Below are positions 7,935 through 41,637 of a stretch of 64,000 bases of DNA, piece after piece; positions within the stretch are counted from its first letter, which is position 1; every line of letters starts with the position of its first letter. The position numbers were made by a program, and so were the translations under genes. Origin of the DNA: Dermatophilaceae bacterium (lineage in GTDB: Bacteria > Actinomycetota > Actinomycetes > Actinomycetales > Dermatophilaceae); assembly GCA_037046615.1 (NCBI GenBank), contig JBAOHD010000024.1, forward strand, positions 1-64,000, written 5' to 3'. The notes beneath the pieces are model-generated. The model ran no database searches. It worked only from the letters and a program-made list of their open reading frames with translations, and was not told the origin of the DNA.

Positions 7935-9170
7935 GCCCCGGCGGCGCGCGGCGGCGCTCGTGCTCGCGGTCGCGCTCGCCGCGGTCGCGCTCGCGGCCTG
8001 CGACGACGAGCGGCGCGACGCGGCGAGCGGGGCGACGGAGCCGCGCGGCGGACGCCCCGCGCCGCGGACCGTCGCTCGCGCCGCTGCTGCGCGGCCCGCG
8101 CGCGGCGCTCGGCGCGAGCGCGGCTCGCCGCCGTGCGCGCGGTCGTCGACGCGCGCGGCGGACGGCGCGGCCGCCGCCGGCTCGTCGTCGAGCGGCGTCG
8201 ACATCGGCCGCGCGCGGCTGCACGTCGGCACGGCCGCGGAGGCCGCCGCGCGACGCCGCGCACCGCCGCCGTGGTCGGCGGGGCTCGGACGAGCGCCTGC
8301 GCCGACGGCGATCGCGCGCCGTCGACGGCGCCGAGCGGGGCTCGCCCTGCTCGCCGACGGACGCGGGCGGCGCGCCCGCGCCGGACGCGGGTCTGCCTGC
8401 GCCTGACACCGACGGCGGGCTGGAGCGATGGCGCGTCGCCGCCGTCGCGCCTCGCCGCCGACCTCGGCGCCGAGCGCGGGTGGCGGTGCTCGAGGACGGC
8501 AGCGCGGGAGGCCGTCGGCCTCGGCGACGCCGTCGCCCGCGGCCGCGGCGGCGGCGGGCGTCGCGGTGGCGGAGCGCGTGCGGGTCGACGCGACCGGGAC
8601 GCCGCGAGCGACGCTGCGTCCGCGGCCTCGGCCGGACGTGGACGCCGTGATCCTGCTGGCGGCGCCCGCGCCCGCCGGGCTCGCCGCGCTCGCGGGCCGG
8701 GCGGCGGCGGGCGGCGCCGGGGCCGCCGCGGTGCCGGTGATCGCGCCGGACGCGTACGCGATCGGCGGCTGCTCGCAGCACTCCCGGCGCCGGCAGCTCG
8801 CGGGCGTCGCGCGTGCTCTTCCCGGGCGTCGCGCCGCCCGTCGTGCTCCGCGGCCGCGGCGGCGGCGCCGCGGCGCCTCGCGGAGGCGCTCGCGGCGGAG
8901 GACGCGAGCCTCGAGCCGCTGGCGGCGGAGGCGGCGGCGGCGGCGCAGGCCGTGCTCGCCGCACCCTCCGACGAGACGCCGACGGCAGCCGCGGCGGCGC
9001 GTGCGCGCGGCCGCGGGCGGGGTGCGCCTCGACGCCGGCACGCGCGGCGACGGGCGCCGCGCGTCGGCGTTCGCGGCCGGACGGCAGCGCGGCCGTGCGC
9101 ACCCTCTCCGTGCTCGTCGCCCGCCCGCCGCGGCTCGGCGTCGAGCGCACGCTCGTGCTGCCGTAGCGTC
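7935..9170 (+). CDS. putative lipoprotein, possibly a type-I periplasmic binding protein; heavily frameshifted and uncertain
   Basis: Lipobox LVLAVALAAVALAAC near the start. Later segment VDAVILLAAPAPAGLAALAGRAAAGGAGAAAVPVIAPDAYAIGGC. No continuous frame survives. Confidence 0.25.
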
Positions 9171-9276
9171 GCCCGCTCCGGCGCGGCGCGCCGCGGAGCG
9201 CTGGTAGCCTCCGTCCGGCCTGGCGAGGCCGGCGGTCAGCTCGCCGCCGCGCCGCTCGCGCGCCGCCCCCTCCTCG

Positions 9277-10030
9277 ATGCCCGCTCCCTCCGCCGAGACG
9301 ACCCTCCTGCGCGTCGCGCTGCCGGACCGCCCGGGCGCGCTCGCGAGCCTCGCGCGCTGCCTCGGCGCCTGCGGCGTCGACATCCAGGGCGTCGAGGTCG
9401 TCGGCCACGAGGACGGCGTCGCGATCGACGACATCCTCGTCCACGGCGGCGATCTCGAGCCGGGCGCTCGGCGCCCTCGACGACGACGTGCGGGTGCTCG
9501 GCCGCGTGGCGGGCGCGAGCCTGCCCGACCCGGGCCTCCTGATGGCGGAGGCGCTCGGGGCGGTGCTCGCCGCGCCGACCGTGGAGGCCGCGCGGGCCGC
9601 GATCGTGCGCGCCGCGCGGTGCGGATCGGGGCCGGCTCCGGCGGCGGCGCTGCTCCGGCGCTCGGGGGCCGACGACCGCCTCTCGCCTCGACCGGCGCGA
9701 CCGTGCCCGGGCCTCGGGGACGTCCCCGCCTACCAGCCGTCGCTCGCGCGGCGCGCGCTCCGCGCGCGGGCCGGCCGCTCGCCGCCGCCGCGGCCGACGA
9801 GGGCTGGGCGCCGCCCGCCTGGCGCGAGGCGCTGCCGGGACGCCAGGTCGCCGCGGTGCCGGTCGTCGTCGGCGACGACGCCGCCTGCTCGTCGTGCGCG
9901 ACGCGGACGTCCCGTTCGTCGACGCCGAGGTCGACCGTCTCGCGGCGCTCCTGCGGGTCGTCCTCTCTCCCCGAACGGGTAGGCGATCTGCGGGCGGCCA
10001 CCCGGGCGGTCCGACGCCGACCGCGAAGTG
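9277..10030 (+). CDS. ACT-domain-containing protein (hypothetical), frameshifted
   Basis: MPAPSAETTLLRVALPDRPGALASLARCLGACGVDIQGVEVVGHEDGVAIDDILV has an ACT-like fold signature. Confidence 0.3.
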
Positions 10031-11463
10031 GGTCTAGGGTGCGACGGTGATCGCCCCCCGCGTCGTCGTCGCCGGCCTCGCGCGCGCCCTCGCTGCGCCG
10101 ACCGCCACCGCCGCGGTGCCGACGGCGCCCGCGCGCGTCTGGTACCGTGCCGAGCTCGCCTGTCCTAGGCGAGACGCTCCGTGCGAGCGGCGCGGGCGAC
10201 CAGCAGACGACCGCCGCCACGCGGCTCGCGCTCGTCCTGCGGAGCTGGCGCCCCGCATGCCGTTCACGCGCACCGTGCACGCCACGGCCGTGCGCCCGCG
10301 CCGCGGCGCCGCTGAGTCAGCGGCGCGCGCACGGCGGCTCGGCTACCGGGAGCAGCTCGCGTTCGCCGCGCCGCTCGCCGGCGCGTTCGGCGCGACGGGC
10401 GTCGTCGAGCTCGTCGAGACGCGCCGCGCGTACCGCCCGGGGGAGGGCGTGCCGTGCGCCACGCTCGTCAGCGACGGCGTCGCAGGGCCGAGGCCGCTCG
10501 AGTGGCATCGACCGGCCGCGGCGGCTTCGTCGGCTGGGGCCTCGCGCTCACGGGCGCGCGCCGCGCCGAGATGCGCGGCTCGCGCCTGGCGCGACGTGCC
10601 CCGCCCGCGTCGGCCGCGCGGGCATCGTCGACGTCGCAGGGACGCCGGTGCCGGCGGACGTGCTCGACGTGCCGGGCCTGCGCGTCCGGCGGGGCTGCCG
10701 CGCGGCGCCGCGCTGCGCGCCCGACGCCGCGCGGCTCGTCGTGGGGCGGCGCTTCGGACGGCCGCTCCGCTTCGTCTGGGACGGCCGCCAGCGGCGCGGC
10801 GTCCTCACCGTGCTCTCGCAGCACGTCCAGATCGCGCTCGTCCCGTGCGGCAGCGGGCGGCGACCTGGCCGCTGCGGCTGAGCCGAGCTCGCGCACGGGG
10901 GCGTGGGCTCACGCGCCGTCGCGGGCGCGCAGCGCGCCGTCGAGCGGCGCGAGGCTCTCGCGTCGTCCGCGTCGTCGAACGCGTCGGTGCGCTCCTGGCC
11001 GCCGAGCGACGAGGACGAGCGCGGTAGCTCGTAGCAGTCGGCGCAGCCCGTCTCGCCCGACGGCGGCGCGGGCAGGGGATCGGGCACGAGCCCGGCGAGC
11101 TCCGCGAGACCGGCCTCGTCCGAGACCGACCACCGTGCGGGCAGGCTGGCCCGTGAAGCCGCCCGACCACGTCAGCGACGCGCGCTCGAGCGGCGCGGCG
11201 ACGAGCGTGGTGCCGGTCGAGGAGCCGGTGCCGACGTCGCTCGTGGCGACCCCGCCGAAGCCGAGGAAGGCGAGGAGCGCTGCGAGGATCGCGATCATGG
11301 ACATCGGACGCACTGTAGCCCGCGGGGGTTCCCGCGTCGCGGCCGAGGGGTCGCCTGCTACGCTGTCGCGCGCTGGCAGTGCTGCTGGCACGACGCGATG
11401 CGGCGTCCCCGTCCGGGGAGTCGTGCGCCCTCCCGAGGGGGACGCAGGACAAGGAGGACGGCG

Positions 11464-28394: not shown

Positions 28395-28760
28395 ATGGTT
28401 AAGGGTTTCAAAGACTTCCTCATGCGCGGAAACGTCGTCGACCTCGCGGTTGCCGTCGTCATCGGTGCAGCGTTTGGCAAGGTCATCGACGGCTTCGTCG
28501 CCGTCATCATGGACCTCATCGGCAAGGTCGGCGGCACGCCGAACTTCTCGACCTGGGTCCCCGGTGGCGTCCACGTCGGTGACTTCCTCACCGCGCTGAT
28601 CTCCTTCGTCATCATCGCCGCCTCCGTCTACTTCATCGTCGTCGTGCCGCTCAACAAGCTGGCCGAGCGTCGCGCGAAGGGCGAGGAGCCGGAGACGGAC
28701 GCTCCCTCCGAGGAGGTCGCGCTCCTCACCGAGATCCGCGACGCCCTGCGCGCCCGCTGA
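28395..28760 (+). CDS. mscL: large-conductance mechanosensitive channel
   Basis: MVKGFKDFLMRGNVVDLAVAVVIGAAFGKVIDGFVAVIMDLIG... is a canonical MscL N-terminus. 121 aa. Confidence 0.9.
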   Translation: MVKGFKDFLMRGNVVDLAVAVVIGAAFGKVIDGFVAVIMDLIGKVGGTPNFSTWVPGGVHVGDFLTALISFVIIAASVYFIVVVPLNKLAERRAKGEEPETDAPSEEVALLTEIRDALRAR

Positions 28761-28804: not shown

Positions 28805-28892
28805 TGTCATGTCTGGAGGGCATCGACGTCGGGTATGCCGCCCGGCCCCCGCCTCTGAAAGCCGGCTGTGCGCCGGGAATCCCGGGGGCGTG

Positions 28893-31800
28893 CTACTCCC
28901 AGTGGGGCGGCCGCTGTTCTTGGAGCCACCTGTCGTGAGCGGACTCGTCGCTCCGCTCGCCCCACCCCGCGTCGGTGTCGTCCCGGGTCTGCTCGACCCC
29001 CGGCTTGATCTGGCGTCGCGCGGTCTCCGCCGGCGTGGACTCGTCGCTCACGGCCTCTCCTTCGGCGGGGTCAGTTTGATCGCCCTGCTCGAGAGTCTGC
29101 TCGCCCAGCTCGGTTGCGTGCTCGGCGGACTGCTCGCCCCTCTCGGTGGCCTGCTCGCTAGCGGCCGCAATCGCGGTCTCCACGTGAGCTTCCTCCAAGC
29201 CTTCCCCAGATGCAGCCTTCGCCATCTCAGCGTGGTGAATGACCGCCGTCGTGACAACCTCACGCATCCGAGCTCGGACTTCCGCGACGATCCGGGCCAC
29301 TTCGCGGGCAGGATCACGGTAGACATCGGTGCTCCACACCGGCACCCACGCCCAGCCGCATCGCGCGAGTTGCTCCGGACGCAGCCGCTCGCGGAACCGC
29401 GTGCCAGGCAACGCGGCATACCCCGGACCGTCGGACGTGACCGCCACGAGATAGCGCCCAGGCACGTCAGGGTGCCCGACAGCGAGGTCGATGCGGTGGG
29501 GGCCGACCCCCCACAGCGGCGCGGCGACGAGACCCTCGGCCAGCAATCGGCCCCAGAGGTAGTCGAGAACGGCGCTGCCGGTCCCGTGCGGCGCGGCGAC
29601 ATCTGCCCCCTCGGGGTGAGCGCCCTGGCGCTCGTCGGTGGACTCCTCGGTGGACTCCGGGGTGGCTTGGTCCGCGCCTTCCGCCCGGGCGAGGAATGCG
29701 CGCAGCCACTGCGTGCCGGCCGTCCGCAGTCGCTCCGGAGCCAGGTCACCCGCGCGCAAGGCGGAGACGACGTGCAACTCACGCAGCGCCCCCGAGAGGG
29801 CCGCGTCGAGAGTCGGCACGGCCTCGTCGGTCAGCGACGGGAAGTGATAGACGACGCGCCCACGAGGGGTGCGGCCATAGCTCACGGCCACGACGACGAC
29901 ATCCGCGGCGGCCGATCCCTCTCCGGGCGTCGTCACCGGCACCTCGCTCGCGCCCTGACGCGCGAGTTCCTCACGGACGAGATCCGCCATGACCCTCGTG
30001 AGCGCGACAACGGCGACGCTCTGCCCATCAGAGGCGCGACGCTCAAGGACGACCTCGACCACCCGGTCGAGCTCTGCGGCGGTCCATTCGACGGGGGCGT
30101 CGCCGGTCGGAGCGAAGGATGCGAGCCCGTCGACCCACTCGAAGGTCACCGGAGACGCAATCGTCGGCGACGACACCCCTCCCAAGAGGTGAGGTATGCC
30201 GTCCGCCCGCAGTCGCGGGTCGGCCGTGGTGTGCCACCAGCGCAACGACCGCGTCGGAAGGGCGTCGGTCGCTGCGGCCAGGAACGAAGTGCGACCTGGG
30301 TCCTGGACGGCCACGTCAGCGCCACTCGACCGGGGCACGCCGACCGCGAAGCGCGACGGTGCGCCTTCGGACCGGTGGCCGACGACGACGACCTGCCGGG
30401 CACGAGAGAGCGCCGAGACCGTCTCGGCCACCGTGACGGAGGCTGCGTCTTCGACGATGACCAGATCGAAAGCCGTTCCCGGAGTGAGGAGTTGGGCCAC
30501 GGCATACGGGCTCATGGCAACGCAAGGACGGACCGCGGTGAGGACTGTCTCGGCCTCGCGGAAGAGGTCTGCGAAGCGCAACCGGCCCCGCCCGGCACCC
30601 ACCTGTGAGCGCAGGAGCTCGACCTGGCGGGCGTGTTCGCGAATCCGCCGACGGGCGACGCGTTGGTGCTGGGCTCTCACGAGGGCGCGGGACTCGGAGC
30701 GGCGGGCCACGTCGAGTTCGCGGAAGCTTGCTGCATGGCGGCGCAGCGCCGGGCCGTCGTGGCCGGCATACCGGGGATCGGCGAGGGTGATCTCTTGGCC
30801 GATCGACCCCCACCAAATGTGCTCGAGCTCGGTGGGCACCTGCGACGCAGCGACATTCCGGCGGGCGAAATCGTCGAGCACCTCGGCCATGCCCGCCGCG
30901 GTCAACTCGGTCAGGACGGGGGTGACCTTGGGCAGGATCGTGAGGCGTTCGGGCCGCGCGGCCAGGTGGTTGAGCCGAGCCCGCACGAGGGGCATTGTCA
31001 GGTCGTGGAAGCCGCCGCCGGCTTCAGTTGCGGCGAGGCGCTCGCCGAGCCAGTACAAGTCGGCGGCGAGCGAGTCGTAGGCCGCTTGAGCCTCGTCGAG
31101 CCGCGGGGAGATCTCGGGGCGACCCCCGGCACCGACGAGGTCGAACCAATACGTGCGCTGTTCGCGGGCAGAGATCAGCTCGGCGTGCAGGTCTGCGGGG
31201 GGCTTACCCGGTCGCAGCAGGCGACGGGTCTGGCGGCGCACGCGCATCCGGGTGAGCCACCCCATCGTGACCTCGTCGTCGCGCTCGCGGAAGTCACGAG
31301 TGCCGGTGGCGGCGACGTGCTCGTCGAGGGGACCGTCGAAAATCTCGGGACGGAAGACTTCGAGGGTGTCTCTGACACCCCGCATCGTCCGCAGCGCGCG
31401 CTCCCAGTCCGCCGGGGTCCGGGCCGGCGGAAGACTCGACTCGGCGAGGATCGCGTCCAAATCCGTTGCGCGCGCGGTGAATCCGTCACCGGCGAGGCGC
31501 GCGAGGATCTGTTGGGCACGCTCGAGGTCGGCGTCGGTGCTGATATCGGCGCCATACCACGGGTCGGAGTGGTCGGGGCCGGCGTCGTCCTCGCGGAGGG
31601 GCGCGTGGGTTGAGCCGGTGTCCCAGGCGCCTGCCGCTGCCGCTGATTGGAGGGCAGCGGAGAGTTCGGCGATCCGCATGGGGCTCAGGTCGCGCAGCGT
31701 CGGACCCGAGATCCGCACGCGTGAACCCGGCGGTGGGGTTTGGGTGGCGAGCTTCGCCATCGCTTCCTGGACCTCGTATGCCGTGACGCCCCAGGGCATA

Positions 31801-33014
31801 CGCCGCTCGTGCAGGGCCTCGACGTGGTCGATGAGCGCACGACGGGCGGTGGTGAGAGCGGCGGCACGTTCGGCGCGTGTGCGCGCGTCGGGGTCGGGGC
31901 GATCACTGCTGGTGAGGTCATCGAGGCTCGCGACGACCGTGGCGACGGCTGACGACCCGAGGGCGTCGGCGCCGAGGAGGTCGAGCACGAGGTCGGGCAA
32001 CTCCGCCTCGCGGAGGCGGGCCGTGAGGTCCCGGACGCTCTGGGCGCGGGGCGTCACGTAGAGGACGCTCTTGCCCTCGTATGCCGCATTGGCCACGAGC
32101 GCGGCCACTGCCTGGGTGCCGCCCGTGCCGCGAGAAGCGTCGAGGACGACGCTGCCACCGGCGCGGACCGCATCGACGATCGACTGTTGGGCGGGGTCGA
32201 GGTCGATGGGGGCGACCTCACGGTCCAGGTCCGGCTCTTCGACGACCGGAGGGGTGGCTGCGGGGAGGCGATCCCGGGCGTGCGGGTCGCCGGCGAGGGC
32301 TGCAACCAGGTCGACCTGGGCGAGCCACCGCGCGTTGGCGCTGACATCGGCGACCATGTCGAGCTTGGCGTAGGGATACGTGCCCACGACGATCCGCGGA
32401 GTCACCGAGAAGCCCGGGACGTCGGCGCAGAGGCGACCGAGGGCGGCATACACGGGATAGGGGTCGAATCCGAAGCCACCCTCGGCGAGGCCGACGAGAG
32501 CGATGGGGTCGACGTCGATGCCCGCGACGGAGCGGAGGTAGTTGACCAGAGCCGGGTTGACCTCGACGTTGTCGCCGAGGTCGAGGACATAGTCGGGTTG
32601 GGAGGCTTGGCCCTCCGAGCGGGTGTCGGCGCTGCCGGCGTGAGCCGTCGAGCGGAGGGTGCACGCCCGCAGCAGCACCGGCGCCTCGACGACGGCGCCC
32701 GCGCGGGGCGGGTCCCACGTAGCGACGCCGATGACGACGAACCCACAGGCCAGGCCACGGGTCTCGAGGAGGTCTTCGGTCTGGTCGTGGATGCGCCGAG
32801 CGACGACGAGTGCCTCGTCAAAGGCACCGGCTTCACGGACGAGGTCGCTCAGGCGGGTCTGGCGGCCTGCCAGGAGCATCGACACCCCGCCGGGATGAGC
32901 GGTCGTGAGGTCGAGCAGGCAGTCGCGTCGGGTCGGCGCCCAGAGCAGGGTGTTGGCGCCGCCGACATCCGAGAGCTCTCGCGCCCACCCGGCGATCGAT
33001 TCGGCGACAGTCAT
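28893..33014 (-). CDS. Hhe-like DUF4011 + SF1 (Upf1-like AAA_11/AAA_12) helicase + C-terminal DUF3320/Vsr-like endonuclease-fold protein; its ATPase motifs look degenerate
   Basis: Single intact 1373-aa ORF with an N-terminal DUF4011-like region. The P-loop region reads LDPAQQSIVDAV...VVLDASRGTGGTQAVAALVA, where GPPGTGKS/T is expected. Motif II reads FDLVIVEDAASV, where DEASQ is expected. C-terminal GWAWVPVWSTDVYRDPAREVARIVAEV resembles a DUF559/Vsr fold, and an acidic tail follows. Confidence 0.65.
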   Translation of the reverse strand: MTVAESIAGWARELSDVGGANTLLWAPTRRDCLLDLTTAHPGGVSMLLAGRQTRLSDLVREAGAFDEALVVARRIHDQTEDLLETRGLACGFVVIGVATWDPPRAGAVVEAPVLLRACTLRSTAHAGSADTRSEGQASQPDYVLDLGDNVEVNPALVNYLRSVAGIDVDPIALVGLAEGGFGFDPYPVYAALGRLCADVPGFSVTPRIVVGTYPYAKLDMVADVSANARWLAQVDLVAALAGDPHARDRLPAATPPVVEEPDLDREVAPIDLDPAQQSIVDAVRAGGSVVLDASRGTGGTQAVAALVANAAYEGKSVLYVTPRAQSVRDLTARLREAELPDLVLDLLGADALGSSAVATVVASLDDLTSSDRPDPDARTRAERAAALTTARRALIDHVEALHERRMPWGVTAYEVQEAMAKLATQTPPPGSRVRISGPTLRDLSPMRIAELSAALQSAAAAGAWDTGSTHAPLREDDAGPDHSDPWYGADISTDADLERAQQILARLAGDGFTARATDLDAILAESSLPPARTPADWERALRTMRGVRDTLEVFRPEIFDGPLDEHVAATGTRDFRERDDEVTMGWLTRMRVRRQTRRLLRPGKPPADLHAELISAREQRTYWFDLVGAGGRPEISPRLDEAQAAYDSLAADLYWLGERLAATEAGGGFHDLTMPLVRARLNHLAARPERLTILPKVTPVLTELTAAGMAEVLDDFARRNVAASQVPTELEHIWWGSIGQEITLADPRYAGHDGPALRRHAASFRELDVARRSESRALVRAQHQRVARRRIREHARQVELLRSQVGAGRGRLRFADLFREAETVLTAVRPCVAMSPYAVAQLLTPGTAFDLVIVEDAASVTVAETVSALSRARQVVVVGHRSEGAPSRFAVGVPRSSGADVAVQDPGRTSFLAAATDALPTRSLRWWHTTADPRLRADGIPHLLGGVSSPTIASPVTFEWVDGLASFAPTGDAPVEWTAAELDRVVEVVLERRASDGQSVAVVALTRVMADLVREELARQGASEVPVTTPGEGSAAADVVVVAVSYGRTPRGRVVYHFPSLTDEAVPTLDAALSGALRELHVVSALRAGDLAPERLRTAGTQWLRAFLARAEGADQATPESTEESTDERQGAHPEGADVAAPHGTGSAVLDYLWGRLLAEGLVAAPLWGVGPHRIDLAVGHPDVPGRYLVAVTSDGPGYAALPGTRFRERLRPEQLARCGWAWVPVWSTDVYRDPAREVARIVAEVRARMREVVTTAVIHHAEMAKAASGEGLEEAHVETAIAAASEQATERGEQSAEHATELGEQTLEQGDQTDPAEGEAVSDESTPAETARRQIKPGVEQTRDDTDAGWGERSDESAHDRWLQEQRPPHWE

Positions 33015-33212
33015 CCCAGCAGGCTAACCAGTGGGCCCGCTTGCGCCTCGGCGGCTGGCCGGGGTGTTCCCGATCCGAGTGGGATTCCGCGGGATTCTTG
33101 GGGCGATCCCGGCGGGAAGCACAGGTCCGTCGGCGGGAGATTCGCCGGGCTGGCGCGCTGGCAGCTAGCCTTGACCGCGCGTCGAGTCACGGCTCTGCCA
33201 GGGCCTGCTGTC

Positions 33213-33244
33213 GTCTGGGTTGTCTGGGTTGTCTGGGTTGTCTC
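33213..33244. repeat. tandem 9-mer repeat (GTCTGGGTT) x3.5
   Basis: gtctgggttgtctgggttgtctgggttgtctcc lies in the intergenic space between the hhe-like gene start and tRNA-Arg. Confidence 0.8.
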
Positions 33245-33280: not shown

Positions 33281-33353
33281 GCCCTCGTAGCTCAGGGGAT
33301 AGAGCACCGCTCTCCTAAAGCGGGTGTCGCGCGTTCGATTCGCGCCGGGGGCA
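33281..33353 (+). tRNA. tRNA-Arg (anticodon CCT)
   Basis: GCCCTCGTAGCTCAGGGGATAGAGCACCGCTCTCCTAAAGCGGGTGTCGCGCGTTCGATTCGCGCCGGGGGCA forms a cloverleaf with a 7-bp acceptor stem, anticodon loop CTCCTAA and a TTCGA T-loop. Confidence 0.85.
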
Positions 33354-33386
33354 CAGGTTTCCGTCAGTGGCACCGTGGAGGGCAGC

Positions 33387-36856: not shown

Positions 36857-36879
36857 GGTCAACCTCTCCTAACGCCTTC

Positions 36880-37010
36880 GAGGTGAGCTGTCGGGTTCGG
36901 GTGGGAGTCACCCGGCTCACGGTCCCGATCACTCGGTCCGGGAGCTTCACCCCAAGGACGTCTCACGACGTCCGAAAGTGGTTCCCCCGCTCCTGCCAGG
37001 CGGTGTTCGT
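36880..37010 (-). ncRNA. probable c-di-AMP riboswitch (ydaO/kimA class) in the 5' leader of the NlpC/P60 gene
   Basis: The minus-strand leader contains ...GGGGUGAAGCUCCCGG...CCACCCGAACCCGACAGCUCACCUCGAAGGCG. This matches the conserved 3' half of ydaO (CCCGAACCCGACAGCUAACCUCG) and lies just upstream of SD and GTG. Such riboswitches commonly precede actinobacterial cell-wall hydrolase/rpf genes. Confidence 0.55.
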
Positions 37011-37231
37011 CAACTTCCGCGGCCAGTGGCAGGACTCGGCGTCTGCCCGCGGAAACCACCCGTGGCCGGGCAGCTTCCGGAACTGTAACTGACAGAACAC
37101 CCAATGTCACATTCCGGTTACGGTGATTTTGCGAGATTCTGCCGCCCTGGAGCGGTGAGCCCGCTCACATCGCCAGACGCGGGTGCCGCGCGTCACCCGT
37201 GCGGAATCCCCTCCGGCTGGACGAGCAGCGG

Positions 37232-41175: not shown

Positions 41176-41637
41176 GCGGGCCACTCTCCCACGACCTCCC
41201 GACAGCCGCCTCGCCCGTGCCGGACCCGCGCGAAAACCTCTTGAACAGTGGCGGGTTCGCGGCATACCGTCTGCACCACACGAGAAGGGAGGTGGTCAGG
41301 TAGTGCATTCCTATCGGACACGTGAGGTGACTGCGCGGTAGCGCAGAGCGTCCTGATCGACGGACGCTGCGACCGCAATCCCAGCAGTCGCTGCGGCCCG
41401 TGGGGTAGGCGCGGTTCGTCCACCGCGCACGCCAGACTCGTCGAGAGACCGGCTCCCCCCGGGCCGTTTCTCATGCCCGGACCGTTTCTCCATAGCCGGG
41501 CCGAACCCAACGGCCTGGCCGACGGTCAGCTGGCTCACCAAGATCGCGATACTGAATGCAAAGATCGCGATCTTGACACTTCGATGAGGTTGCAGCAGGA
41601 CCCAAGTGTCACCATCGCGATCTTCACAACGGTCAGC

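What the first reader, a model, noticed from the sequence alone, without database searches (positions are those of the whole stretch)
28893..33014. Intact 1373-aa Hhe-like helicase-nuclease with a degenerate P-loop and Walker B, next to tRNA-Arg
The architecture is DUF4011 followed by an SF1 Upf1-like helicase core and a C-terminal DUF3320/Vsr-like nuclease fold. This matches the single-gene Hhe anti-phage system. Where GPPGTGKS/T is expected the protein reads ASRGTGGT, so the P-loop lysine is missing. Where DEASQ is expected it reads VEDAAS. The ORF is uninterrupted and followed by an acidic tail. It lies between mscL and a tRNA-Arg(CCT) gene, with a 9-mer tandem repeat in between. It may be an ATPase-dead sensor or scaffold variant of a defence helicase-nuclease, or a housekeeping paralog. 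I did not see a dedicated partner gene.
Basis: partly seen in the sequence, partly recalled or inferred. Interest (0 to 1): 0.6.

Follow-up and report, generated by a model that had tools for sequence, protein, structure and literature searches.

The report
ATPase-dead core helicase-like gene, fused mini-protein
This intact 1373-residue gene is not a mobile Hhe phage-defence gene but the local copy of an old, position-conserved actinobacterial helicase–nuclease-like gene that has lost every ATP-hydrolysis motif yet is still kept by selection, and it ends in a conserved peptide that other actinobacteria encode as a separate tiny gene.

Summary
ORF 28893-33014 (-) is intact, and ASRGTGGT and VEDAAS align exactly with GPPGTGKS and FDEASQ of orthologs. 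Helicase motifs III, V and VI are also lost, and so is the Glu of the Vsr-like nuclease motif (AVTSDG).

The Hhe reading does not hold.
- The protein scores 164 bits against Hhe (cut-off 2000) and 316 bits against ProA (cut-off 1500).
- In nearly every fetched Dermatophilaceae locus long enough to show it (80 fetched), the gene sits in the same chromosomal slot, HEL-mscL-SAF-PNP-Na/H-FTHFcl-galU. Angustibacter and Arthrobacter keep the same neighbourhood.
- No relative turned up in IMG/VR viral contigs.

The gene is a vertically inherited core gene. Canonical orthologs (Terrabacter, Intrasporangium) keep all motifs. The window's clade, and 88 of 135 family representatives, have lost them.

It is not a pseudogene. 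dN/dS is 0.12 against an 85%-identical relative, the same as for canonical pairs. AlphaFold gives a confident SF1B (Upf1-like) fold.

The last ~38 residues (DDTDxGWGE…WLxEQRPPHW) are a separate, translationally coupled 48-74-aa gene in Janibacter, Angustibacter and some Arthrobacter. In Salinispora this small gene stands alone.

Most likely it is a non-catalytic nucleic-acid-binding scaffold. This function is inferred, not shown.

The parts
28893..33014 (-). Whole ORF, 1373 aa plus stop codon: helicase-nuclease-like protein (called HEL here)
   Evidence: host-like codon GC; dN/dS 0.116 against L081
33020..33028 (-). Conserved GTTAGCCTG box. TAGCCT is a TAnnnT -10-like hexamer at 33021-33026 that ends 6 nt before the ATG, so a leaderless mRNA is likely.
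   Evidence: Box (with minor variants in 3 loci) at the same spacing in all 23 loci inspected. The promoter role is inferred from general knowledge of actinobacterial leaderless promoters. The sigma-70 consensus scan found nothing.
32205..33014 (-). N-terminal domain, aa 1-270 (DUF4011-type); most conserved folded region
32115..32138 (-). Degenerate Walker A: ASRGTGGT (canonical GPPGTGKS); the Lys is replaced by Gly
31815..32204 (-). RecA-like domain 1, N-terminal part (aa 271-400), motifs Q, I and Ia
   Evidence: PDB profile hits to IGHMBP2, DNA2 and Upf1 over aa 270-350; model
30615..31814 (-). Large all-helical insertion in RecA1 (aa 401-800). It is family-specific, and its C-terminal part lies within the best-matching stretch to the ProA and PDC-S37 models.
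   Evidence: invariant blocks TLEVFRPE, LRPGxPP, GAGGRPE
30441..30458 (-). Degenerate Walker B: IVEDAA (canonical IFDEAS)
30357..30380 (-). Degenerate motif III: GHRSEGAP (canonical GDERQLPP)
29715..30314 (-). RecA-like domain 2 (aa 901-1100). Motif V is degenerate (GEGSAAAD, 29901-29924) and motif VI lacks the Arg finger (ALSGAL, 29784-29801).
   Evidence: omega 0.15-0.26 in degenerate pairs against 0.06-0.10 in canonical pairs
29265..29564 (-). Vsr-like REase_MTES_1575 domain (aa 1151-1250). Motif AVExDG reads AVTSDG (29427-29444).
   Evidence: Pfam 62 bits against a cut-off of 38.2
29010..29264 (-). Acidic, poorly conserved linker (aa 1251-1335, pI 4.3)
   Evidence: omega 0.44
28896..29009 (-). 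Conserved C-terminal peptide IKPGVEQTRDDTDAGWGERSDESAHDRWLQEQRPPHWE. This is the fused form of a mini-protein that is a separate gene in other actinobacteria.
28395..28760 (+). Context: mscL, convergent with the ORF; a syntenic anchor
33281..33354 (+). Context: tRNA-Arg(CCT), divergent from the ORF
33213..33243 (.). Context: 9-mer tandem repeat GTCTGGGTT x3.4 just upstream of the tRNA; not conserved

Best explanation
The ORF is the resident ortholog of a vertically inherited gene found widely in Actinomycetes. The protein has a DUF4011-type N-domain, an Upf1-like SF1B core with a 400-residue helical insertion, a Vsr-like domain, and a conserved C-terminal peptide. The family is a distant sister of the ProA/PDC-S37 and Hhe defence helicase-nucleases. 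In the window's lineage (an uncultured Dermatophilaceae clade that includes Ca. Phosphoribacter), the protein has lost the Walker A Lys, the canonical Walker B, motifs III and V, the motif VI Arg finger, and the Glu of the nuclease motif. Fold and protein are nevertheless kept under purifying selection, so it is a pseudo-helicase. The last ~38 residues are a fused copy of a conserved mini-protein that is a separate, translationally coupled gene downstream of the helicase-like gene in other genera.

Shown: orthology and synteny, motif loss, fold retention, purifying selection, and the fusion/fission of the tail.

Inferred: the protein acts without ATP hydrolysis as a nucleic-acid-binding scaffold or adaptor. 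Its selected function resides in the N-domain, the helical insertion, the Vsr-like fold and the C-terminal GWG...RPPHW peptide. The peptide either tethers it to a conserved cellular partner or regulates it. I put about 0.85 on the identity and evolution part and about 0.4 on the scaffold mechanism.
For: Motif alignment.

Synteny: HEL-mscL-SAF-PNP-Na/H-FTHFcl-galU holds in nearly every one of the 80 species loci long enough to show it. These loci were picked by protein similarity only. The same neighbourhood occurs in Angustibacter with a canonical form, in Arthrobacter with a degenerate form, in a 34%-identical relative and in Janibacter.

Family size: at least 538 species genomes and 880 50%-identity clusters at E<1e-30. 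Of 135 representatives, 88 lack both the Walker A Lys and the Walker B DE, and 36 keep both.

Selection: Q against L081 gives omega 0.116 at dS 0.56, and every folded domain gives 0.05-0.15. Degenerate pairs give 0.13-0.22 (a partly degenerate K->A/E->G pair 0.34) and canonical pairs 0.12-0.20. Only RecA2 is 2-3 times more relaxed.

Fold: AF2 gives pLDDT 87.3 and pTM 0.76. Foldseek matches Aquarius, SETX, IGHMBP2, UPF1, DNA2 and ZNFX1 at E down to 1e-10.

Tail as a separate gene: 4-nt ATGA/TTGA overlaps in Angustibacter, Janibacter and Arthrobacter. A stand-alone 60-aa gene with no helicase-like gene beside it sits in the same neighbourhood in Salinispora. A profile search gave 4033 hits, and the best 120 are all 36-97-aa proteins.

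Mobility: no relatives in IMG/VR viral contigs.

Expression: a conserved -10-like box at leaderless spacing.
Against: There is no biochemical or genetic data for any family member, so the function is inferred.

GTG of the P-loop is still near-invariant, and both Walker B positions stay acidic (ED here, DD in close relatives). Nucleotide binding without hydrolysis is therefore not excluded.

Homology to ProA, PDC-S37 and Hhe is real (E 1e-94, 1e-90 and 1e-48), and a conserved chromosomal position does not by itself exclude an immune role.

The dN/dS values are simple NG86 estimates in a 70% GC genome.

The count of independent losses comes from an NJ tree and is probably inflated.

Whether the tail binds in cis or in trans was not tested.
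Confidence: 0.7

Rival explanations
1. It is an anti-phage immune gene: an ATPase-dead sensor or effector variant of the ProA/PDC-S37/Hhe type that became fixed at one chromosomal site.
For: Best HMM matches are defence models: ProA 316 bits, PDC-S37 300 bits, Hhe 164 and 123 bits. Canonical orthologs reach 837-961 bits to PDC-S37. It is a single gene with its own promoter. It lies next to a tRNA gene, and the tRNA-HEL distance varies between 0.2 and 8 kb, with an integrase beside it in Janibacter L086. One relative (P0207) carries an extra DEDDh/PDC-S48 module.
Against: All scores are far below the curated cut-offs, even for canonical orthologs. The gene is syntenic in nearly every fetched species locus long enough to show it and across orders. 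True Hhe is in only 302 of 5426 E. coli genomes, IS-flanked or on plasmids. The gene tree groups by genus. No copies were found in viral contigs. The nuclease Glu, whose probable counterpart is required for Hhe defence (E1731A, bioRxiv 10.1101/2022.06.16.496414), is Thr here.
Confidence: 0.12
2. It is still an active NTPase or nuclease that uses non-canonical residues, for example the retained GTG P-loop with the ED acidic pair and other basic residues in place of Lys and the Arg finger.
For: G296, T297 and G298 are near-invariant, and both Walker B positions are acidic in the window's clade. RecA1 is under strong purifying selection (omega 0.08-0.10). D1195 and G1196 of the nuclease motif are invariant.
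Against: Five ATPase motifs are altered together (I, II, III, V, VI), including the Lys and the Arg finger. The substituting residue at the Lys position differs between related lineages (A, V, R, T, L, G, S and others), which argues for loss of constraint rather than a new catalytic solution. RecA2 is 2-3 times more relaxed than in canonical orthologs.
Confidence: 0.08
3. It is a decaying relic (an incipient pseudogene) with no selected function.
For: Catalytic motifs are lost in both enzymatic modules. Several relatives show frame breaks near the 3' end (L008, L063, L067, L078, L079).
Against: The 4.1-kb ORF is intact. omega is 0.116 at dS 0.56 and 0.05-0.15 in every folded domain, the same as in canonical orthologs. 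The promoter box is conserved. The fold prediction is confident. Degenerate forms persist across many genera.
Confidence: 0.03

Closest known systems
ProA (NCBIfam NF058533, 'anti-phage protein ProA') / PADLOC candidate PDC-S37
   Same: It is the best-scoring known family (316 and 300 bits for the query, 837-961 bits for canonical orthologs). The match covers part of the helical insertion, the RecA1 C-terminal part, RecA2 and the Vsr-like domain.
   Different: The score is far below the equivalog cut-off of 1500. The ProA profile is 1903 positions against 1373 residues here. The query lacks all ATPase motifs. It has a core syntenic chromosomal position. It ends in the GWG...RPPHW peptide. I found no paper on ProA or PDC-S37 in the library, so the comparison rests on the HMMs and their names alone.
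Hhe (Gao_Hhe; NCBIfam NF042953; PADLOC Hhe), the single-gene DUF4011 helicase-Vsr nuclease defence system
   Same: Same order of domains (DUF4011-type N-domain, SF1B core, Vsr-like MTES_1575 domain). The RecA2-plus-nuclease region is 26% identical to Klebsiella/E. coli Hhe (E 6e-38).
   Different: Hhe is 1911 aa with intact GPPGSGKS and DEASQ and the nuclease motif IECDG. An E1731A change abolishes its defence activity (10.1101/2022.06.16.496414). Hhe is accessory (302 of 5426 E. coli genomes; plasmids; IS-flanked). The query scores 164 of 2000 bits, has dead motifs and Thr at the Glu position, and is a core gene.
Eukaryotic and viral Upf1-like SF1B helicases (UPF1, IGHMBP2, SETX/Sen1, DNA2, Aquarius, ZNFX1, nsp13)
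   Same: Same core fold by structure search (Foldseek probability 1.0, E 1e-10 to 1e-7) and by profile search.
   Different: Those are active ATPases. Identity is only 10-16%. The N-domain, the helical insertion, the Vsr-like domain and the tail have no counterpart in them.
Pseudoenzymes that keep a P-loop NTPase or helicase fold (general concept, from my own knowledge)
   Same: The fold is retained under purifying selection after loss of catalytic residues, which implies a binding or scaffolding role.
   Different: I found no described bacterial example of this particular family. Here the loss is recurrent within one orthologous, syntenic gene.

Membership tests
Hhe (NF042953 / PADLOC Hhe) | Reaches the curated equivalog score (2000 bits) | tested here: not met
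   164 bits for the query; 574-617 bits for canonical orthologs
Hhe (NF042953 / PADLOC Hhe) | N-terminal DUF4011 domain | tested here: inconclusive
   PF13195 is not reported for the query at E<=1. Orthologs that align end to end hit it at 22-29 bits against a cut-off of 22.2.
Hhe (NF042953 / PADLOC Hhe) | Intact SF1 ATPase motifs (GPPGSGKS, DEASQ) | tested here: not met
   ASRGTGGT and VEDAAS; motifs III, V and VI are also lost
Hhe (NF042953 / PADLOC Hhe) | Vsr-like nuclease with the motif Glu (E1731 in the published mutant; probably the E of IECDG) | tested here: not met
   The MTES_1575 domain is present (62 bits) but the motif reads AVTSDG. The equivalence to E1731 is inferred from a 4-residue numbering offset.
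Hhe (NF042953 / PADLOC Hhe) | C-terminal DUF3320 | tested here: not met
   No Pfam hit. The C-terminus is an acidic linker plus the GWG...RPPHW peptide.
Hhe (NF042953 / PADLOC Hhe) | Accessory, patchy, mobile-context distribution typical of defence genes | tested here: not met
   Syntenic in nearly every fetched species locus long enough to show it and across orders. Hhe itself is in 5.6% of E. coli genomes.
Hhe (NF042953 / PADLOC Hhe) | Confers phage resistance | not testable with these tools
   Needs phage challenge experiments
ProA (NF058533) / PDC-S37 | Reaches the curated equivalog score (1500 bits) | tested here: not met
   316 bits for the query; 843-859 bits for canonical orthologs
ProA (NF058533) / PDC-S37 | Full-length match to the ~1550-1900-position profile | tested here: not met
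   The best stretch covers profile positions 1082-1381 of 1903 (ProA) and 719-1017 of 1550 (PDC-S37)
SF1B Upf1-like helicase superfamily | Two RecA-like domains with the SF1B topology | tested here: met
   AF2 model pLDDT 87.3; Foldseek matches at probability 1.0 to SETX, IGHMBP2, UPF1 and DNA2; profile hits
SF1B Upf1-like helicase superfamily | Catalytic motifs I, II, III, V and VI | tested here: not met
REase_MTES_1575 (PF18741, Vsr-like PD-(D/E)xK clan) | Pfam gathering score | tested here: met
   62.1 bits against 38.2
Actinobacterial syntenic HEL family (unnamed; defined here) | Full-length alignment to orthologs, position next to mscL/SAF, and the GWG...RPPHW tail or a downstream mini-gene | tested here: met

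The most novel reading that the evidence does not exclude
The helicase-like protein and the DDTDxGWGE...WLxEQRPPHW mini-protein form an undescribed, Actinomycetes-wide housekeeping module. In it the SF1B fold serves as an ATP-independent nucleic-acid clamp or adaptor. This would explain why its ATPase, and often its nuclease, has decayed many times independently while the protein is kept. The mini-protein would be the conserved interaction element, since it persists even where the helicase-like gene is gone from the syntenic site (Salinispora).
Probability: 0.3. Interest if true: 0.7.

Novelty: new variant of a known kind. Interest (0 to 1): 0.5.

Why it matters
Homology-based defence annotation (PADLOC, NCBIfam-style names) would tend to read this gene as 'Hhe/ProA-like'. 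The evidence shows that one branch of that superfamily is a core chromosomal gene of actinobacteria whose enzymatic motifs are repeatedly lost while the protein stays under selection.

This gives a natural series for asking what a helicase-nuclease fold does without catalysis. The series runs from canonical (Terrabacter), through Lys and Glu only lost (the L011/L044 group), to fully degenerate (this window, Ca. Phosphoribacter, Arthrobacter, Janibacter).

It also brings to light a highly conserved, unannotated 40-90-aa actinobacterial mini-protein that is alternately fused to the helicase-like protein and split from it. That is a concrete handle for finding the partner and the pathway. The hosts include abundant wastewater phosphate-accumulating Dermatophilaceae.

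Tried and rejected
2. The N-domain as a duplicate of the C-terminal Vsr-like domain. hhalign gives probability 0.4%.
3. A LexA-box or PafBC (RecA-NDp)-type promoter upstream. Reading the aligned upstream regions by eye showed only the -10-like box. A CTGTCGGTG word in some canonical loci is at the wrong spacing. This was not tested formally.
4. The 9-mer repeat as a functional element. It is absent from all 91 fetched loci.
5. The 599-aa ORF on the opposite strand (28809..30608 +). It fails the codon-position GC pattern of real genes, so it is a high-GC artefact.
6. Literature on ProA, PDC-S37 or DUF4011 in actinobacteria. Nothing relevant was found.
7. Pfam and NCBIfam models for the tail or mini-protein. 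There are none.
8. Full-length structure prediction and a profile search with the whole protein. As a result the tail was never modelled with the rest of the protein.
9. The afdb50 fold library was not available.
10. Rfam finds nothing in the locus except the tRNA. The sigma-70 promoter and terminator scans were empty.
11. Exact equivalence of Hhe E1731 could not be fixed. The E. coli copy I fetched is 5'-truncated by an IS3 element.

Full report
**1. The observation**

The window is about 70% GC. ORF 28893..33014 on the minus strand is intact, starts with ATG and encodes 1373 aa. Its codon-position GC is 0.77/0.54/0.83, which matches the neighbouring genes. The overlapping 599-aa ORF on the plus strand fails that pattern.

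- mscL lies at 28395-28760 (+) and is convergent with the ORF.
- tRNA-Arg(CCT) lies at 33281-33354 (+) and is divergent from it.
- The 9-mer GTCTGGGTT x3.4 lies at 33213-33243.
- ASRGTGGT (aa 293-300) and IVEDAAS (aa 853-859) are present.

In an alignment with 117 homologs, and again with 75, these two motifs fall in the same columns as GPPGTGKS and IFDEASQ of canonical relatives.

| Motif | Canonical | Query |
|---|---|---|
| III | GDERQLPP | GHRSEGAP |
| V | QGDERD | EGSAAAD |
| VI | TRAR | SGAL |
| Nuclease | AVExDG | AVTSDG |

The nuclease substitution is shared only with the closest relatives (P0001/L081, P0002/L001, P0004).

Pfam finds only REase_MTES_1575 above threshold (62 bits). AAA_11 is sub-threshold. 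No DUF4011 or DUF3320 hit is reported in the query itself. Orthologs carry DUF4011, AAA_11 and AAA_12.

**2. It is not a member of Hhe or ProA**

- NCBIfam gives ProA 316 bits (cut-off 1500) and Hhe 164 bits (cut-off 2000).
- PADLOC gives PDC-S37 300 bits and Hhe 123 bits.
- Fully canonical orthologs reach only 843-859 bits for ProA, 574-617 for Hhe and 837-961 for PDC-S37.

The shortfall therefore belongs to the whole family and is not caused only by the query's decay. The family is a sister branch of the same superfamily and lies closer to ProA/PDC-S37 than to Hhe. I found no paper on ProA or PDC-S37.

**3. It is a vertically inherited core gene**

A pattern scan of one genome per GTDB species found at least 538 genomes with relatives. 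The best 80 loci are all Dermatophilaceae/Intrasporangiaceae. These loci were chosen by protein similarity alone. In nearly every locus long enough to show it, the gene is followed by mscL, then a SAF-domain gene, PNP, a Na/H exchanger, 5-FTHF cyclo-ligase and galU, as in the window. tRNA-Arg(CCT) lies 0.2-8 kb upstream in about 40 of them.

The same neighbourhood holds in more distant taxa:

- Angustibacter (Kineosporiales), with a canonical protein.
- Arthrobacter, with degenerate proteins.
- Janibacter.
- A 34%-identical relative whose neighbours continue into galU-moeA-rimJ.

The NJ tree groups sequences by genus. In contrast, true Hhe is present in 302 of 5426 complete E. coli genomes and on Klebsiella plasmids, flanked by IS elements. 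No relative was found in IMG/VR viral contigs.

Upstream, a conserved GTTAGCCTG box (minor variants in three loci; TAGCCT is a TAnnnT -10-like hexamer) ends 6 nt before the start codon in all 23 loci inspected. This fixes the start codon and suggests a leaderless, monocistronic transcript. That reading rests on general knowledge of actinobacterial promoters.

**4. Motif loss is a lineage trait and recurs**

Within the family Dermatophilaceae, the Terrabacter, Intrasporangium, Humibacillus, Pedococcus and Phycicoccus clade keeps every motif. Three groups do not:

- A: GTGTT / GAG.
- B: the window, Ca. Phosphoribacter baldrii and other activated-sludge MAGs. Lys is replaced by A, R or G, and DE by DD, ED or QD.
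- C: GTGAT / DGAS, with motifs III and VI still intact.

Group C looks like an early stage, and group B like a late stage. The unrooted topology is compatible with one loss inside the family.

Across the wider family there are 880 50%-identity clusters at E<1e-30. Of 135 full-length representatives, 88 lack both the Walker A Lys and the Walker B DE, and 36 keep both. This sample is biased towards relatives of a degenerate query. An NJ tree rooted on Hhe needs about 21 independent losses if loss is irreversible. That number is probably inflated by tree error, but there are several large separate degenerate clades (36, 14, 8, 8, 8 and 7 members).

Non-acidic residues at the nuclease Glu position are commoner in Lys-less representatives: 36 of 90 against 7 of 41 (Fisher p=0.01, not corrected for phylogeny).

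**5. It is not a pseudogene**

- NG86 dN/dS of the window gene against its 85%-identical relative L081 is 0.116 at dS 0.56.
- By domain, omega is 0.06 (N-domain), 0.10 and 0.08 (the two RecA1 parts), 0.08 (insertion), 0.15 (RecA2), 0.05 (nuclease-like domain), 0.12 (tail) and 0.44 (acidic linker).
- Other degenerate pairs give 0.13-0.22 (a partly degenerate K->A/E->G pair gives 0.34), and canonical pairs give 0.12-0.20.
- Only RecA2 is consistently more relaxed: 0.15-0.26 against 0.06-0.10.
- Identity of the query to canonical orthologs is highest in the tail (0.60), the nuclease-like domain (0.55), the N-domain (0.53) and the insertion (0.49). It is lowest in the RecA parts (0.35-0.41).

**6. 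Structure**

AlphaFold2 on aa 1-1200 gives pLDDT 87.3 and pTM 0.76. Foldseek matches Aquarius, SETX, IGHMBP2, UPF1, DNA2, ZNFX1 and nsp13 (E 1e-10 to 1e-5). A profile search of PDB sequences agrees. The SF1B fold is therefore retained.

**7. The 'missing partner' is fused**

After a variable acidic linker, the last ~38 residues (…EQTRDDTDAGWGE…HDRWLQEQRPPHWE) are nearly invariant across the family.

- In Angustibacter the same peptide is a 55-aa ORF that overlaps the helicase stop by ATGA.
- In Janibacter terrae it is a 74-aa ORF with the same overlap, seen in two assemblies and annotated in several species.
- In Arthrobacter sp. MMS18-M83 it is a 48-aa ORF with a TTGA overlap. It is fused in Arthrobacter sp. 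ISL-69.
- Both canonical and degenerate helicase-like genes carry it.
- In Salinispora arenicola a 60-aa version stands alone in the 5-FTHF cyclo-ligase-galU-moeA neighbourhood, with no helicase-like gene beside it.

A profile of the peptide found 4033 proteins at E<=10. The best 120 are all 36-97-aa 'hypothetical proteins' with no Pfam domain. These small proteins have a variable N-terminal part and the conserved ~32-residue motif at the C-terminus.

**8. How it most likely works**

Shown: the protein cannot have a canonical SF1 active site. The Lys, the Walker B Glu, motifs III and V and the Arg finger are gone, and it lacks the Glu of the Vsr-like motif. The probable equivalent of that Glu, E1731 in Hhe, is needed for Hhe defence. 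The equivalence rests on a 4-residue numbering offset. The fold and most surfaces are nevertheless under purifying selection.

Inferred: the selected function does not need ATP hydrolysis. The most economical model is a nucleic-acid-binding scaffold or adaptor built on the SF1B cleft, the N-domain and the helical insertion. The C-terminal peptide would connect it to a conserved partner or regulate it. The Salinispora case argues that the partner is not only the helicase-like protein itself.

Nucleotide binding without hydrolysis remains possible, because GTG of the P-loop and both acidic Walker B positions are kept. The biological process is unknown. The neighbours (mscL, SAF, galU and the others) give no functional clue.

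**9. Verdict**

The Hhe and defence interpretation is not supported, while the 'housekeeping' alternative is supported, with the gene being an ortholog rather than a paralog.

The finding is a new variant of a known kind. It is of moderate interest for the recurrent pseudo-helicase evolution and for the unannotated mini-protein.

Noticed in passing
window 8001-11000: Very high GC (0.80-0.85 against about 0.70 elsewhere), with ORFs longer than 200 aa open in many frames. It may be a low-complexity Ala/Arg/Pro-rich coding region or unusual DNA.
   Followed up: no
window 36859-37015 (-): c-di-AMP riboswitch (ydaO/yuaA type), 64.6 bits against a gathering score of 38.
   Followed up: no
window 41278-41472 (+): Match to the actinobacterial sRNA Ms_IGR-5 (RF02471), 71 bits against 45.
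   Followed up: no
window 33020-33028 (-) and the same position in L001-L063: Conserved GTTAGCCTG box (minor variants in 3 loci) ending 6 nt before the start codon of the helicase-like gene in all 23 loci inspected. It is probably the -10 element of a leaderless transcript.
   Followed up: partly
window 33213-33243; L016 upstream region: The 9-mer repeat GTCTGGGTT is unique to the window. L016 has an unrelated 12-mer repeat (CAGCACGGAGTC) in the same intergenic position. This spacer seems prone to short tandem repeats.
   Followed up: partly
L012, L019, L033, L058 and others (tRNA-Arg to HEL distance); L086:83-1383: The distance between tRNA-Arg(CCT) and the helicase-like gene varies from 0.2 to about 8 kb among species. 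Janibacter L086 has an excisionase-like gene and an integrase directly upstream of HEL. The tRNA side looks like an integration hotspot next to a core gene.
   Followed up: no
L008, L063, L067, L078, L079 (3' end of HEL): The conserved tail is in a different reading frame from the main ORF. This could be real gene splits, frameshift mutations or assembly errors; several are long-read MAGs.
   Followed up: no
L087:7001-7183, L088:6226-6408 (Salinispora arenicola): The 60-aa mini-protein with the DDTDxGWGE…WLxEQRPPHW motif stands alone near 5-FTHF cyclo-ligase, galU and moeA, with no helicase-like gene beside it. Whether a helicase-like gene exists elsewhere in that genome was not checked.
   Followed up: partly
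P0207 (1799 aa, metagenomic relative): A canonical family member with an extra C-terminal DEDDh exonuclease / PDC-S48-like module (344 bits). It is a more defence-like architecture within the same superfamily.
   Followed up: no
L091:21-6736 (E. coli SCEC020022): The chromosomal hhe copy is 5'-truncated next to an IS3 transposase and sits beside yecA and tyrP. This illustrates the mobile context of true Hhe.
   Followed up: no
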